Program-made: the position numbers and the translations under genes
Shown here: in pieces, positions 4,785 to 62,436 of the stretch
How the letters are laid out: each line of letters starts with the position of its first letter
How positions within the stretch are numbered: the stretch's first letter is position 1
The notes under the pieces: generated by a model
The model's input: the letters and a program-made list of their open reading frames with translations, nothing else
The model's database searches: none
What the model was told of the DNA's origin: nothing
Assembly (NCBI GenBank): GCA_964016885.1
Contig: OZ024744.1
Span: 86,490,001-86,554,000, forward strand
Direction of reading: 5' to 3'
Length of the DNA stretch: 64,000 nucleotides
Source: Eledone cirrhosa
Lineage: Eukaryota

Positions 4785-5434
4785 TAAATGCAAGTATGTA
4801 TGTATACGTACATACATATATGTATACAGACGTACAGTAGCATGCATATAAATATATATATATATATATATATATATATATATATATATATATATATATA
4901 TATATATATATATATACATACAGGTACACATTTTATTACAACTCATCGTTTTCGGTGCGCCTGACCGATTTAACTCACTCGATATGCAAATTAGGCTGTT
5001 CAGCCGTTAATTTTCATAAGGAAAGTATATACTTTCGAACGTTCAACCATCTGGCAGAAGGGTATACGGTGCTGATGATAGCTAACAAGCTTGAAACTAG
5101 TACATCGTTCCTGTGTCAGTGTTGAACAAAAAGGTGACGTGGTTGCCTTAACACCGTACGGCATAAAATTCAGGCTGTTGAGTTTGTTTACAAACGAACA
5201 AAGCGGGCGCTATAATAAGCATCCGCTAAACTGATACGTACATATATGTATGTGTACCTGTATGTATATATCTATATATATATAAATATATATATATATA
5301 TATATATATATATATATGCATGCTACTGTACGTCTGTATACATATATGTATGTACGTATACATACATACTTGCATTTAAGTAAGTGGCGTATTAAGAGTG
5401 AGAAATGAAATTTCGTTTTCATTTTATTACAACT
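4785..5434 (+). mobile_element. Non-coding HHR element family A: inverted fragment plus one permuted monomer
   Basis: Terminal direct repeat CATTTTATTACAACT at 4929 and 5420; 4785-4930 is the reverse complement of about 5251-5378; homologous to 35470-36265. Confidence 0.85.
5066..5108 (+). ncRNA. Minimal type I hammerhead ribozyme (family A)
   Basis: ACGGTG-CTGATGA-TAGCT aaca AGCTT-GAAA-CTAG-TA-CATCGT; palindromic stem III ACTAGT. Confidence 0.85.
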
Positions 5435-5532
5435 ATATATATATATATATATATATATATATATATATATATATATATATATATATATATATATATATAT
5501 ATATATATATATACTACGTATATATATATATA

Positions 5533-6580
5533 CTACCAGTTTAGGCCGGCGTTTCTCGGGTTTGTTCATTTGTTATGAAAAGTTACATACAGGTAAACGT
5601 GGCTTTAAAGCGAATAAGATTATCAATTAAGTGCATAAAGCTGTTGAACCTGTTATTAAAAGTTACGAACCAATCAGCATTTTGGACAATCAATGATGGG
5701 TTAATAATCTTCCACTACCGAATTTAGCAGACCAAAGTTGCAAGATGGTGGTCCTGATGCCGCTGGGTGTTAGATCCGTCCGCCATGAGTGACCCTACCA
5801 GGAAATATTTCTCCAGACGGCATAGCTCCAACACCTCCAACACCTGCACCAACATATATAGTACCTCTTTGTAGATGTCATCCCTTGAGGAGTGTAAGCA
5901 AAAAGTCAATACCTGCTCCCTACGCGGGAACAGGCAACATAACGTTGGCCATGGGAGAAGCATGGCTCCCCAAAATGGATGCCCGCCACTGGCAATGTTT
6001 GCCCTTGACCTGTTAATGGACATGGCAAAACATGGTCTCACTGGGAATTGGGATCGCCGGAAATCGAACGGGATATCGGACGCCGAGGGGAAAAGGTTCA
6101 TCCTTGGCAGTGTATTCGGCAGAATTGCCAGAAGTACAACACTATGGGTATTGTCATATTAATATTTAACCAATATTTATCGTAAGAAATAAATAATTTA
6201 AACATTCCGATTCATATGTCTATAGCATTAATCTGTTATATGAAGTGTTATTTTGCGGGTTGTTATTTGCAATAAGCCAATTTAAAATGCCCCAGAAAAG
6301 CCGAATGTCAATACGGAACTCCAATGACTCCCCAGCAGTTAATTTATAGAGAGGGGGAATAATGTATTATAGAGAGAGGGGAGAGCGATGGAGAGAGTAA
6401 AGCTAAGAAACTATAGGGAGGTTTGTAAAACAGTGTTCTCATATAGAGAGTGAAGAGCGACAGATAGTGTAAAGCAGTTAAATTATAGAGAGGGGGAGTT
6501 ATCTATTATAAAGAGGGGGAATGATCTATTATAGACAGAGGGTAGAGCGACGGAGAGAGTAAAGCTACGAAACTATCATT
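5533..6580 (-). mobile_element. Helitron, internally deleted
   Basis: Pif1 helicase C-terminus; degenerate 3' hairpin and CTAG-like end near 5533-5560; flanked by (TA)n. Confidence 0.75.
5858..6150 (-). pseudogene. Helitron Pif1-type helicase C-terminal fragment
   Basis: LPRMNLFPSASDIPFDFRRSQFPVRPCFAMSINRS, then frameshifted FSHGQ.YVACSRV and KEVL. Confidence 0.88.
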
Positions 6581-6609
6581 TATATATATATATATATATA
6601 TATATATAT

Positions 6610-6870
6610 TTTATTAAAATAATTGATTAAAGTTCAAGCAAAGGACCGCTGCTTTCGCCCTTAACGAAATATTTACTTCTGCGTTCACAGATTGTTTTTT
6701 TCTTACTTACAGAAGATCGCGTTAAGAGTGGAAGCAGCGATTCTTTGGTTAAACTTTAATCTGTTATTTTAATAAATATATGCTCTAGGGTTCTTATATA
6801 TTGGATATATATTTATCCTTATCGAGCCCTCTTTGGAATTTAGTCTTCACATTTATTATTATTTCTATAT
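6610..6870. repeat. Fold-back fragment of Naiad pLTR (family D)
   Basis: Inverted arms; matches 24640-24812, 39060-39198, 50062-50260, 52280-52395. Confidence 0.7.
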
Positions 6871-6904
6871 ATATATATATGTATATATATATATATATAG
6901 GGAA

Positions 6905-7270
6905 ATGTTTAACCCCGACGGCAGAGCTCAAGTCCTTTCGACGGCTATTTCTTTCAAACATGACATATTTCTTTCTTATAGTTTTGTATAGGGAATTGGA
7001 TTCTTAGCTGCTTCCATAGAATTCCTCTTTTGCATTTTTTTTCTCGTCGAAACGGCTTGGGCTCTGCCGTCGGGGTTAAACTTTACTCTAAGATGTGGTC
7101 ATTGGCGTAGAGTATTTCCAGGGCTTCAGCGGCGAAGAGGTCACATGGTCTTTTATTTCCATTATACGATCTAGCCTTAGCCAGCATCTCCCAGTGTAAC
7201 CTATATTGGGTGTGGTTGTACTATGGTGTGTTATGGTCCATTTGGTTCCTTACCACACTTCCTTCGTTAA
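6905..7270 (+). mobile_element. Family B fold-back element (3' half of an HHR) with an embedded Naiad endonuclease fragment (about 7088-7219, minus strand)
   Basis: GTC-GAAA-CGGC..GCCG-TC-GGGGT with an inverted copy; the insert matches about 51080-51210. Confidence 0.75.
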
Positions 7271-7275
7271 ATATA

Positions 7276-7963
7276 CAGGGTGTCCCAAAAGATTGACATC
7301 ATTTCGCAGGCCAATAATTTTGGCAATTCTTGTTAAAATAATCTTAAATTTTCACAGAATGTATAGAAACAGATCAAGATTTTATATTTATTGTTTTATA
7401 TTTTTATCTTTTCAGGTTGAGAAATGCCGTTCACTTCCAAAGAAAGGTCATTTTGCGTCTTGGAATATGCTCGAATAGAGCCACCCAAGATTGTGCAGTG
7501 TGCCTTCAATGCAAAATTTGGAAAAAAGTCACCAACTGGCAAACAGTATCCTCAGGATACGCCAAACCGTCATCGAGGAATTTGGGTTTCCAAACTTGTT
7601 CTCCTTACGGACTTCGTGGGGCTTCGCAAGAGTTTTTCACGAACTTGCTCGACCTTGCTCGAACTTGCTCGAACTTGCTCGACCTTCTCTGATGTTGATG
7701 GTGGTCTTCCAGATCTTTTAACCCTTCATAAGCAGCCTTCCTCTTTAAATTTTTGTTACCATGTCCAACTGTATTTGCCAGTTGGTGACTTTTTTCCAAA
7801 TTTTGCATTGAGTGACTGTGTTCGAGCATATTCCAAGACGCAAAATGACTTTTATTTGGAAGTGAACGGCATTTCTCAACCTGAAAAGAGAAAAATATAA
7901 AATATTAAATATAAAATCTTGATCTGTTTCTGTACATTCTGTGAAAATTTGAGGTTATTTCAA
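7276..7963. mobile_element. Tc1/mariner-derived fold-back: two inverted 5' transposon ends with an N-terminal HTH (DUF4817-like) fragment
   Basis: TA-CAGGGTGTCCC terminus; MPFTSKERSFCVLEYAR..AFNAKFGKKSPTGK on plus and a matching copy on minus. Confidence 0.75.
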
Positions 7964-60310: not shown

Positions 60311-60493
60311 TTTTCTATTTTATATTCAATTCTTCTCAATTTGAATTTGCCTTTTTTGTTTTTCTACTGAATTGTTTTTTCATGATATATTCTATAAGTA
60401 AAAAGAAGGAAAAAAAAAGAAAATGTTCGATTAGACACTACTTGGAGTTATTCTTATAAGCAAATCACTTTGTTATTTCAGTGTATTATGAGC

Positions 60494-60782
60494 CATAGGC
60501 TGACCAAGATACTCTCATGGAATGACCAATGAGGTATATTTTTCCACATACTTCCTGGAAAGAAACAATGCAGTTATTAATAAGAAGAGTTGAAATTAAT
60601 GCATGCAAGATTTCACATCTCTAGCATCACACCTTCATAGGCTGACCAAGATACTCTCATGGAATGACCAATGAGGTATATTTTTCCACATACTTCCTGG
60701 AAAGAAACAATGCGGTTATTAATAAAAACAGTTGAAATTAATGCATGCACGATTTCACAGCTTTAGCATCACACCTTCATAG
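60494..60782. repeat. 142-bp tandem duplication
   Basis: CATAGGCTGACC.. at 60494 and 60636. Confidence 0.92.
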
Positions 60783-61499
60783 TCAGTACTATTTCAGCCG
60801 ACTTTCGTATGTAATGGCTGAATAAGAAACAGGATACCTTCAACGTAAAGACATTTGATCAATTGATTTTTGGTTGTAGTTACATGTATGAAATTATCTA
60901 TATATGTTTAAGTACTATATACGTACCTTAGCGATTTATGAAAAATAAACTAGTGGTACCCTACATGCACAAATACATACACATACACACATTGATGATG
61001 GCTGCCCCCTCGTTTTCGAGTATGGCCATTTGAAAAAAAAAATAACACACGTATATATTAATTAACGGTGCTGCGTGGACTGTCGCTTTTTTAGCCCAGC
61101 CAATGATCTAAAATGTCCTGCACAGAGTTGGTAACACATACATAAAAACATAAATGCATGCATACATACATAGATACATGCAAATATACATACATATGAC
61201 TGAACTTAGATATGTGGAAAAGAGCACAGTTTCCTAATTCATAGACTATAACTGGCTGCGATAGCTGGCTCCTTCAAAATTTCCAAAACATTCTTGCGAT
61301 TGAAGAGATGACAATTTCTTTTTTTTAACAACCTTGCCACCAGGATGGTTGCTGGTAAAAAATGTACTCGAAATTAAGAGAAAGAGAAACATACATACAC
61401 ACATACACACACACTAGACTCACCTGATCAACGAAACAATTGTCAGTACTTGAAGTAAAGCCCCTTATTGTACAGCCACTATATATATATATATATATA

Positions 61500-61690
61500 T
61501 AGGAACAAGTAAGACTCCGACGGCTGAGCTAAAGCCGTTTCGACGGCTAATTCCCAGAATTAGCCGTCGAAACGGCTTGAGCTCAGCCGTCGGGGTCTTA
61601 CTTGTTCCTATTACCCACTCTACTACCCTAAGTATTGAGTACTTTGGTGCGTTATGGTCCACCTGGTTCCTTACCACATTTCCTTCGTTA
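61500..61690 (+). mobile_element. Family B fold-back element in (TA)n
   Basis: Palindrome about 61500-61610 plus tail. Confidence 0.8.
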
Positions 61691-61803
61691 TATATATATA
61701 TATATATATATATATATATATATATATATATATATATATATATATATATATATAATAAGAAAAAGCGAAGTAGTTTCAGATGTTAAAGTCCTTTAATGAT
61801 AAT

Positions 61804-61878
61804 GCTGTGATACATATTTCAATGACGATAGTGGCCACACGGTTCGGTGCGTCCAGTGCCGTGACATCATCAGACAGC
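61804..61878 (-). ncRNA. Hammerhead-like motif family E; inverted copy at 62153-62227 (+)
   Basis: GCTGT-CTGATGA-long stem II-GAAA-TATGTA-TC-ACAGC inside inverted repeat 61755-61955/62075-62278. Confidence 0.65.
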
Positions 61879-62400
61879 TCCTTACATAATAAGGTTATGG
61901 TCGGAGGCAATCCAAATTGAATCGACATGGGAACGGACAAAGCGTGTGCTCTTGAAGTCTTCGCCCGTTCCCTTGTGAGTACCATTTCAACCCCACCGTT
62001 CTGCAGAGGCGCAAGTTCGAAGGAAGTTGACCATCAACTACCCCAAAGTTCTACGAAACTCGCCTAGGCAGGATTCAAGAGCACACGCTTTGTCCGTTCC
62101 CATGTCGATTCAATTTGGATTGCCTCGGAAACATAAGCTTATTATGTAAGAAGCTGTCTGATGATGTCACGGCACTGGGTGCACCGAACCGTGTGGCCAC
62201 AGTCGTCATTGAAATATGAATCACAGCATTATCATTAAAGGACTTTAACATCTGAAACTACTTCGCCTTTTCTTATTCGATATATACTCCGTCACTCCTA
62301 TGTGGAAAATATACGTTGAGTGCTTGAATTGAATTGCGTCAATATTTACCTTAAGTAAACAGATTAGAGCAAACATCACGGGCGCTCTATCTCAAAATTA

Positions 62401-62436
62401 TTTTTGAAAAGCATTAGAAATGCGCAACCGGTAAGA
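62401..62436 (+). ncRNA. Decayed U3-A8 hammerhead-like motif
   Basis: TTT-TTGAAAA-GCATT aga AATGC-GCAA-CCGG-TA-AGA. Confidence 0.45.

What the first reader, a model, noticed from the sequence alone, without database searches (positions are those of the whole stretch)
5066..62436. High hammerhead density: about 20 motifs from about 9 families in 64 kb
Seen at 5066, 24265, 29503/29555, 34405/35214, 35668/36206, 38202/38291, 38794, 52832, 53186/53278, 53623, 55443, 57149/57200, 61804/62153 and 62401, nearly all in short elements bounded by (TA)n. Many have palindromic stem III (ACTAGT, ACCGGT, ACATATGT, ATATATAT). Established: PLE-associated minimal HHRs with palindromic stem III cleave as dimers. 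Inference: if the window is typical, the genome holds a very large unannotated ribozyme repertoire that could cut host pre-mRNAs.
Basis: partly seen in the sequence, partly recalled or inferred. Interest (0 to 1): 0.8.

Follow-up and report, generated by a model that had tools for sequence, protein, structure and literature searches.

The report
Genome saturated with Penelope hammerhead ribozymes
The self-cutting RNA motifs (hammerheads) packed into this window are real end-pieces of Penelope-type jumping genes and their short hitch-hikers, present an estimated 200,000-450,000 times in this animal genome, more than any count we found in print, but most copies are predicted to be folded shut or too weak to cut host RNAs.

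Summary
Observation confirmed. A strict type I hammerhead descriptor gives 14 hits in the window versus 0.02-0.22 in shuffles. They are the 3' pseudo-LTR ends of Penelope-like elements (PLEs), eight groups traced to RT/GIY-YIG ORFs, plus non-coding tandem retrozymes. They are inserted in (TA)n as divergent, uneven-ended inverted pairs. Eight exact patterns give 180,534 genome-wide matches (60/Mb); 99 sampled 10-kb loci give an estimate of 2.3-4.6 x 10^5. The window is about twice the average. The highest printed count found is 126,247 (axolotl, about 4.5/Mb), but descriptors differ. Rfam names none of them. The host-cutting idea is weak: about half the copies lie behind their own antisense arm, which abolished the predicted fold in 8 of 8 pairs; over half have purely palindromic stem III and would need a dimer partner; no RNA data were available. 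The qualitative features (PLE hammerheads, opposite-strand pairs, U3-A8 core, (TA)n targeting) are published. This scan already noted the retrozymes and core variants on other DNA of this genome. What is new is the measured scale.

The parts
5066..5108 (+). Family A hammerhead (stem I 6 bp, CUGAUGA, 4-bp stem II with U.U at its base, stem III ACUAGU) in one monomer (4945-5425) of a 424-484-bp tandem retrozyme
   Evidence: 468-bp unit, 19 hits in L045; 23,477 exact matches
7965..9457 (-). Broken PLE RT/endonuclease remnant (51-76% to the 784-aa PLE ORF)
   Evidence: (RVT_1)
24265..24338 (+). Family B hammerhead, 45-nt stem II region, stem III AUAUAUAU; B repeats as a 1,364-bp unit with no PLE ORF found
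24876..26189 (-). Family O: PLE endonuclease remnant (25961-26161), 3' UTR and damaged hammerhead (C3 at 24937, G8A); member of the largest hammerhead group
29491..29690 (.). Family C two-armed element: intact hammerhead 29503-29551 (-), damaged 29555-29604 (+); right arm carries an ~80-nt tail
29780..30463 (.).
   Evidence: L178
34183..35378 (.). Family E two-armed element: U4C hammerheads, C3 at 34511 (-) and 35220 (+), 81-nt stem II region; parent not found
35521..36265 (.). Family A two-armed insertion: hammerheads 35668-35710 (-) and 36206-36248 (+)
36452..37365 (-). Family G1: truncated PLE, endonuclease remnant 37034-37243, 3' UTR, hammerhead with C3 at 36692 (weak stem I/III in this copy)
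37458..37565 (.). Decayed family C pair (C3 at 37499 on the minus strand; damaged plus-strand copy)
38096..38386 (.). Family F two-armed element: intact 38197-38275 (-), damaged G8A copy 38291 (+); parent not found
38794..38836 (+). Family G2 hammerhead; relatives lie 3' of a PLE endonuclease ORF (L023)
50067..52392 (+). Family M truncated PLE: inverted pLTR with U4A hammerhead (C3 at 50220, -), GIY-YIG-type ORF remnant 50423-51336 (+), 3' pLTR with damaged hammerhead (C3 at 52324, +)
   Evidence: (19,369)
52832..52880 (+). H2: U3-A8 core, stem III ACCGGU, weak stem I (doubtful)
53049..53388 (.). Family H two-armed element: U3-A8 hammerheads 53186-53223 (-) and 53278-53315 (+); no PLE ORF tied to it in the loci read
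   Evidence: (13,393)
53623..53716 (+). Family I hammerhead, 61-nt stem II region, stem III ACAUAUGU, C.A mismatch next to the core
55443..55523 (+). Family J hammerhead: solo, 7-bp stem I, 5-bp non-palindromic stem III; best candidate for cutting as a monomer
   Evidence: P stem I 0.96; weak RAGATH-1 hammerhead match, 21 bits
56490..56581 (-). Diverged B-like hammerhead with broken stem I
57139..57321 (.). Family C two-armed element: intact 57147-57206 (-), plus-strand copy at 57200 with broken stem I
61502..61688 (.). Family N hairpin (also 6900-7083, 26333-26521, 54858-54995): two 3' halves of a U3-A8 hammerhead with a 19-nt palindromic stem III, truncated before the first core box; PLE pLTR
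   Evidence: (L110, L114)
61755..62340 (.). Family B two-armed element: 61804-61878 (-) intact, 62153-62227 (+) with weakened stem III
62398..62436 (+). Family Hc: U3-A8 core with GCAA in place of GAAA and weak stem I; family norm in the 3' pLTR of a young PLE with a 784-aa RT + GIY-YIG ORF
   Evidence: (11,056)

Best explanation
The motifs are type I hammerhead sequences in the 3' ends (pseudo-LTRs) of many Penelope-like retroelement families and of short non-coding retrozymes, and their density comes from hundreds of thousands of mostly 5'-truncated insertions that likely arose when a PLE enzyme cut (TA)n and copied the RNA's 3' part from both DNA ends. Shown: hammerhead next to an RT/GIY-YIG ORF for groups C, D, G1, G2, Hc, M, N and O/T; tandem non-coding units for A and B; (TA)n at the 3' ends; divergent inverted pairs; uneven arm ends. 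Inferred from PMC11167929 and PMC8557442: both strands of the break prime reverse transcription at two fixed internal sites downstream of the ribozyme, so even the shortest insertions tend to keep one or two hammerheads. Inferred: the ribozyme serves the element (cutting unit-length RNA from tandem transcripts, as a dimer through the palindromic stem III, probably protein-assisted). Genomic copies are mostly passive by-products; in two-armed copies the antisense arm is transcribed first on either strand and is predicted to seal the ribozyme in a long hairpin.
For: Enrichment. Structure not imposed by the descriptor: stem II region folds better than its shuffles in 44 of 73 motif types versus 8 of 73 control segments; stem III is an exact palindrome in 64 of 117 versus 3 of 125 shuffle hits; 4 of 5 stem II pairs show double-sided changes. 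PLE links: L178 (pLTR, 794-aa ORF, pLTR, inverted truncated copy); L082-L088 (784-aa ORF, RVT_1 + GIY-YIG); L152 (C hammerhead, tail, ORF start); L189/L190/L124 (M), L110/L114 (N), L023 (G2); L213-L218 (T); in the window itself for M, G1, O. 29,027 first-look candidates for the PLE RT. Retrozyme arrays L045, L060, L187, L195. (TA)5 within 200 nt downstream in 84 of 117 versus 21% background. Divergent 18, convergent 2; 9 of 9 window pairs divergent. Uneven arm ends in 8 of 8 pairs measured. Masking: P(stem I) 0.0 in 8 of 8 pairs; antisense copy upstream for 55 of 117.
Against: No cleavage, expression or insertion assay. No parent ORF was found for E, F, H, I, J or H2, so their PLE dependence rests on anatomy. 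2 of 20 sampled pairs were convergent. Masking is an equilibrium-folding prediction, and 4 of the 8 pairs (C1L, C2L, DR, ER) already had P(stem I) of 0.11 or less in the 20-nt context. 62 of 117 sampled copies have no detected upstream antisense arm (38 of 71 with a full 4 kb of flank). Alignment rows were hand-picked, and stems I, III and the 3-8 pair were selected by the descriptor. Clade labels (Nematis-like, Neptune-like) are from recalled motifs; no tree was built.
Confidence: 0.87

Rival explanations
1. A substantial share of the copies cut host pre-mRNAs in vivo, so the repertoire is a genome-wide layer of transcript processing or a fitness load.
For: Scale. About half of the copies are not masked. 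Some solo copies fold well locally: J 0.96, B1 0.89, G2 0.83. Conserved intronic hammerheads exist in amniotes (PMC6155905, passages). Retrozymes are depleted from introns in Xenopus (10.64898/2026.07.22.740005, part 2).
Against: Most need dimers. PLE minimal hammerheads had no activity as monomers and low activity as dimers (PMC4209133). The Anolis PLE ribozyme needs protein and leaves no RNA-seq ends at its site (PMC11167929). 1 of 9 predicted retrozyme dimers cleaved (preprint, part 3). Core positions in 30 family A copies vary about as much as flanks (weak, several rows truncated). No host exon was recognised in 57 non-repeat ORFs.
Confidence: 0.15
2. The two-armed elements are MITE-type DNA transposons whose terminal inverted repeats happen to contain hammerhead-like sequence, inserted at TA.
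For: Long inverted repeats of 83-100% identity flanked by TA.
Against: Arms are uneven at fixed family-specific points, internal lengths vary continuously, longer copies run into RT/GIY-YIG ORFs or tandem units, and many copies are single-armed.
Confidence: 0.03
3. The motifs are vestigial: once hammerheads, now carried along without catalytic need even in active families.
For: A young family with 11,056 copies has GCAA and a weak stem I. U4A is fixed in 19,369 copies. Ribozyme mutants did not affect insertion in vitro (PMC11167929). Naiad PLEs spread without canonical hammerheads (PMC8557442).
Against: Compensatory changes among families and subfamilies in stems I-III and the 3-8 pair. Variants above 10% inside the family A motif fall only on N7, loop II and one pair-preserving stem I site (run of unknown kind, possibly the assembly's own sample).
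Confidence: 0.2
4. Chance matches in AT-rich, microsatellite-rich DNA.
For: The relaxed descriptor has a real background (6.1 per window; 5-11 per 990 kb). Hit 49358 has no family.
Against: 14 versus 0.14-0.22; reversed-pattern controls 0 for seven patterns and 298 for the eighth.
Confidence: 0.01

Closest known systems
Minimal/variant type I hammerheads in PLE pseudo-LTRs (Cervera and de la Pena 2014, PMC4209133; parts 1-2 of 4 read)
   Same: Type I topology, short stem I, enlarged stem II, palindromic stem III, many heterogeneous families per genome, mostly truncated solo copies, opposite-strand pairs 100-700 bp apart, U3-A8 variant.
   Different: Counts there are about 3,300 (Schistosoma minimal), 4,000 (coelacanth) and 9,000 (Xenopus), versus at least 82,424 two-box exact matches and an estimated 2.3-4.6 x 10^5 here (different descriptors). 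Stem II regions reach 88 nt; U4A and GCAA cores are fixed in large families, not mentioned in the parts read.
Metazoan non-LTR retrozymes (Cervera and de la Pena 2020, PMC7229834, passages; Li et al. 2026, 10.64898/2026.07.22.740005, parts 1-3 of 5)
   Same: Family A and the 310-bp relative: non-coding head-to-tail units, one type I hammerhead each, low GC, coexisting with PLEs.
   Different: A units are 424-484 bp and B is 1,364 bp; they also occur as two-armed inverted insertions. Circular RNA and expression untested. The axolotl record of 126,247 in 28 Gb is about 4.5/Mb versus at least 60/Mb here.
EN+ PLEs of the Neptune and Nematis clades (Craig et al. 2021, PMC8557442, passages)
   Same: RT then C-terminal GIY-YIG, Cys-rich linker, partial tandems, inverted 5'-truncated copy at the 5' end, one-sided tail, microsatellite targeting, hammerhead near the 3' end.
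   Different: Tails here are about 60-170 nt rather than 30-40. Clade assignment was not tested by tree.
Anolis Poseidon PLE in vitro (Frangieh et al. 2024, PMC11167929, passages)
   Same: Both strands cut and extended, two internal RT start sites give the tail, ribozyme upstream of the start sites.
   Different: A single family there; no test on these elements.
Natural hammerhead core variants (Perreault et al. 2011, PMC3088659, passages)
   Same: U3-A8 covariation, U10.1.U11.1 mismatch, U4C tolerated in a viroid.
   Different: A13C and U4A did not appear in the passages seen; figures and supplements were not seen.

Membership tests
Type I hammerhead ribozyme | Core C3UGANG8A9 / G12AAA / U16.1H17 (or U3-A8) around three stems with stem I open | tested here: met
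Not met at 29555, 38291, 57200, 52832, 62401.
Type I hammerhead ribozyme | Stems kept by compensatory change | tested here: met
   13 of 15 pairs; only stem II is independent of the descriptor; 44 of 73 versus 8 of 73.
Type I hammerhead ribozyme | Self-cleavage 3' of H17 | not testable with these tools
   No assay; no RNA run listed.
Rfam hammerhead families | Score at or above gathering threshold | tested here: not met
   None in the window; none for 36206; 21 bits versus 56.3 for 55443.
Penelope-like element (EN+) | ORF with RT and C-terminal GIY-YIG endonuclease in the parent | tested here: met
   784-aa ORF has RVT_1 + GIY-YIG. The 794-aa ORF has no Pfam hit but aligns to it at 24%, E 5e-10. 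Parents found for C, D, G1, G2, Hc, M, N, O/T.
Penelope-like element (EN+) | Parent ORF for families E, F, H, H2, I, J | tested here: inconclusive
   None tied in the few copies held.
Penelope-like element (EN+) | pLTRs in partial tandem and/or inverted 5'-truncated copy | tested here: met
   L178; 18 divergent versus 2 convergent.
Penelope-like element (EN+) | One-sided 3' tail (two RT start sites) | tested here: met
   8 of 8 pairs uneven; the tail continues into the ORF start in L152 and L178.
Nematis / Neptune clade | RT phylogeny | not tested
   Labels from recalled motifs and the linker described in PMC8557442; homologues were unnamed.
Non-LTR retrozyme | Non-coding tandem units, each with a type I hammerhead | tested here: met
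   Family A: L045, L187, L195; 310-bp relative L060; B: L181, L182.
Non-LTR retrozyme | Expressed as linear and circular monomer RNA | not testable with these tools
   No RNA holder listed.

The most novel reading that the evidence does not exclude
This genome has the densest hammerhead load yet measured (about one per 7-13 kb). The host tolerates it because PLE two-ended insertion builds in an antisense lock on half the copies, while unlocked, monomer-competent copies such as 55443 do cut nascent host transcripts and are purged from, or recruited on, the sense strand of introns. Fixed non-canonical cores (U4A, U3-A8 + GCAA) and 45-88-nt stem II arms would be protein-rescued designs.
Probability: 0.17. 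Interest if true: 0.8.

Novelty: new member of a known kind. Interest (0 to 1): 0.48.

Why it matters
Each qualitative feature is in print, so this is not a new kind of system. The scale is the point: at least 60 and probably 80-150 motifs per Mb, missed by Rfam in this window, against about 4.5 per Mb for the highest count found in the literature searched. With 10^5 copies, dozens of families and intact parent ORFs, two old questions become statistically testable in one genome: whether PLE hammerheads cut in vivo (strand bias in introns, cyclic-phosphate ends) and whether PLEs need them (active families with altered cores). It is also a large natural library of hammerhead variants.

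Tried and rejected
Rfam: E-value scan swamped by microsatellite miRNA hits (150 of 426 listed); no hammerhead at gathering. DNA search with family D returned nothing, not even itself (common words are skipped), so a pattern was used. The pattern was mis-sized (1 match, not used). RNA: no RNA holder listed; four runs of unknown kind were laid, giving no evidence on expression, and the low-depth matches in organisms C and D were not interpreted. Host exons: 57 of 67 non-repeat ORFs scanned, no hit above Pfam cut-offs, so it is unknown whether the window is intronic. 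The mean stem II z-score was inflated by zero-variance cases and is replaced. Dimer energies were all favourable but had no control, so they are not used. No hammerhead was found in the tRNA-like element K. Lunse et al. 2017 (PMC5785218) is not held; the dimer claim is cited through PMC6765202 passages and PMC4209133. MITE and chance explanations rejected (see rivals). The organism was not determined; octopus and cephalopod literature was searched on a recalled resemblance and showed no hammerhead survey.

Full report
Window. 64 kb of AT-rich animal DNA: about 10% microsatellite and 68% covered by repeats seen in other held loci, with LINE remnants and PLE remnants at 7056-7217, 7965-9457, 25961-26161, 37034-37243 and 50423-51336. 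It lies at G000:C28:86,490,001-86,554,000 of a 3.0-Gb assembly. The organism was not determined.

Observation. A strict type I descriptor finds 14 motifs; shuffles give 0.14-0.22 (max 2) and the reversed sequence 0. So 16 look intact and 5 are damaged or atypical. Rfam reports no hammerhead at threshold.

Are they real hammerhead structures? Two features not required by the descriptor were tested on 99 sampled loci. The stem II region folds better than its own shuffles in 44 of 73 motif types versus 8 of 73 neighbouring segments. Stem III is an exact palindrome in 64 of 117 hits versus 3 of 125 shuffle hits. In 19 hand-picked motifs (one mis-cut), 86.8% of cells pair versus 58.4% shuffled, with double-sided changes in 13 of 15 pairs including 4 of 5 in stem II; stems I, III and the 3-8 pair were selected for, so only stem II is independent. 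Family A subfamilies use A-U, G.U or U.G at one stem I pair, and family C swaps A-U for C-G. Activity is untested.

What carries them. Longer copies from the genome show the parents. Family D is the pLTR of an element built as inverted truncated copy, pLTR, 794-aa ORF, pLTR (L178). The 62401 motif is not decay: it is the norm at the 3' end of a young element with a 784-aa RVT_1 + GIY-YIG ORF (7 of 7 copies read). Family C runs from hammerhead through its tail into an ORF start (L152). M, N, G2 and the large T/O group flank PLE ORFs, and M, G1 and O do so inside the window. Family A forms head-to-tail arrays of 424-484-bp non-coding units, 19 hits in L045, also as two opposed arrays; B repeats as a 1,364-bp unit. 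These are retrozyme-like. No parent ORF was tied to E, F, H, H2, I or J.

Insertion anatomy. (TA)5 lies within 200 nt downstream of 84 of 117 sampled motifs versus 21% of random positions. Same-family opposite-strand pairs are divergent in 18 of 20 cases and in all 9 window pairs. The two arms end at different distances from the cleavage site in 8 of 8 pairs measured (for example D 163/52, E 229/59, M 115/30). Craig et al. (PMC8557442, passages) describe the inverted 5'-truncated copy, one-sided tail and microsatellite targeting. Frangieh et al. (PMC11167929, passages) show a PLE protein cutting and extending both strands and starting at two internal RNA sites. Inference: each insertion is copied from just downstream of the ribozyme, often from both ends of a break in (TA)n, and usually aborts early, leaving one or two hammerheads in a few hundred bases.

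Genome-wide scale. Whole-genome exact counts: A 23,477, Hc 11,056 (37), M 19,369 (38), C 26,185 (52), D 3,067 (53), B 2,757 (54), T 81,230 (80; control 298), H 13,393 (81); sum 180,534, or 60/Mb. A, C, M and H span both core boxes (82,424); D and B cover only the 3' half and T the 5' half, though 52 of 57 held T matches pass the full descriptor. In 99 loci of 10 kb (59 at round-number positions, 40 random; contigs totalling 2.82 Gb) there were 152 hits versus 5-11 in shuffles, in 57 of 99 loci; 117 after collapsing arrays, 77 of them canonical. This gives 2.3 x 10^5 (canonical, collapsed; bootstrap 1.6-3.1), 3.5 x 10^5 (collapsed; 2.7-4.4) or 4.6 x 10^5 (all), with background not subtracted (about 2 x 10^4). 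The sample is calibrated: 76 pattern matches versus 59.7 expected, the excess being one array; the eight patterns cover 57 of 152 hits. The window has 15 hits versus 7.6-9.8 expected (P about 0.03), and the adjoining 40 kb hold one. Printed counts found: 126,247 in axolotl (PMC7229834; 28.21 Gb), about 9,000 in Xenopus, 4,000 in coelacanth, 3,300 minimal in Schistosoma (PMC4209133), 5,000 in mussel. Searches found no higher count. Those genomes were scanned with other descriptors, and supplements were not read, so the record is likely but not proven.

Could they cut host pre-mRNA? In a divergent pair the antisense arm precedes the ribozyme on either strand; predicted stem I probability was 0.0 in 8 of 8 pairs folded with the arm (4 were already low without it), while solo copies ranged from 0.26 (A1) to 0.96 (J). 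55 of 117 sampled motifs have an upstream antisense copy. Most of the rest would need a dimer partner. Published PLE hammerheads were inactive as monomers and weak as dimers or protein-dependent with no RNA-seq ends, and 1 of 9 frog retrozyme dimers cleaved. On the other side, half the copies are unmasked, some have full stem III, and retrozymes are depleted from Xenopus introns. No RNA data or host exon was found. The idea is open but unsupported; I put it at about 0.15.

Known versus new. PLE hammerheads, their massive occurrence, opposite-strand pairs and the U3-A8 core are in Cervera and de la Pena 2014; retrozymes as PLE derivatives are in the 2020 paper and the 2026 preprint; U3-A8, U.U at stem II and U4C are in Perreault 2011. 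Earlier notes of this scan report the retrozymes, two-armed arrays, U3-A8 and GCAA in this same genome; I had reached these readings before looking, and they are not independent support. The contribution here is the measured density, the family-to-parent map and the self-masking prediction. Verdict: real, new members of a known kind at an unusual scale; interest 0.48.

Noticed in passing
window 55834-56347: Two-armed element with a tRNA-like head in each arm (55966-56038 -, 56192-56265 +), uneven ends in (TA)n like the PLE elements, but no hammerhead found; 13 related hits in held loci. Possibly a tRNA-derived SINE moved by PLE machinery. No earlier scan note by sequence.
   Followed up: partly
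L099:3774-5774: One open frame joins the RT of the 784-aa PLE family to the endonuclease end of family M, apparently a natural chimera of two PLE families.
   Followed up: no
L086:6372-7736 and L099:2306-3670: A 455-aa upstream ORF overlapping the 784-aa PLE ORF in another frame; no Pfam hit.
   Followed up: partly
window 10625-10812 and at least 8 other places (e.g. 13902-14100, 15513-15704, 39908-40141, 48124-48532): Very abundant SINE-like repeat, 103 hits in 590 kb of sample; no hammerhead.
   Followed up: no
window 577-4229 (+), 40136-43599 (-), 46251-47448, 63334-63997; 22432-23775 (-): Decayed LINE copies with RT and zinc-finger domains, and a separate RT remnant; intact relatives of 1,036-1,204 aa lie in the adjoining L092 and L093.
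   Followed up: no
window 57997-59901: 1.9-kb (CAC/CAA)-rich array with a 72-bp period, open in several frames (Pro-Thr or Thr-Asn rich); no Pfam hit; similar arrays in L087 and L095.
   Followed up: partly
window 7276-7967: Inverted-repeat element with internal deletion (arms 7329-7543 and 7774-7967) sitting on the 3' end of the PLE remnant; resembles a Tc1/mariner derivative (recalled, not tested).
   Followed up: no
window 49358-49419 (-): Strict hammerhead hit in unique sequence with no relatives in held loci and no (TA)n nearby; chance or an old solitary copy.
   Followed up: partly
window 29491-30463, 34183-36265, 61502-62590: Elements of different families abut or nest in each other's TA tracts, suggesting that each insertion leaves a new target.
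   Followed up: no
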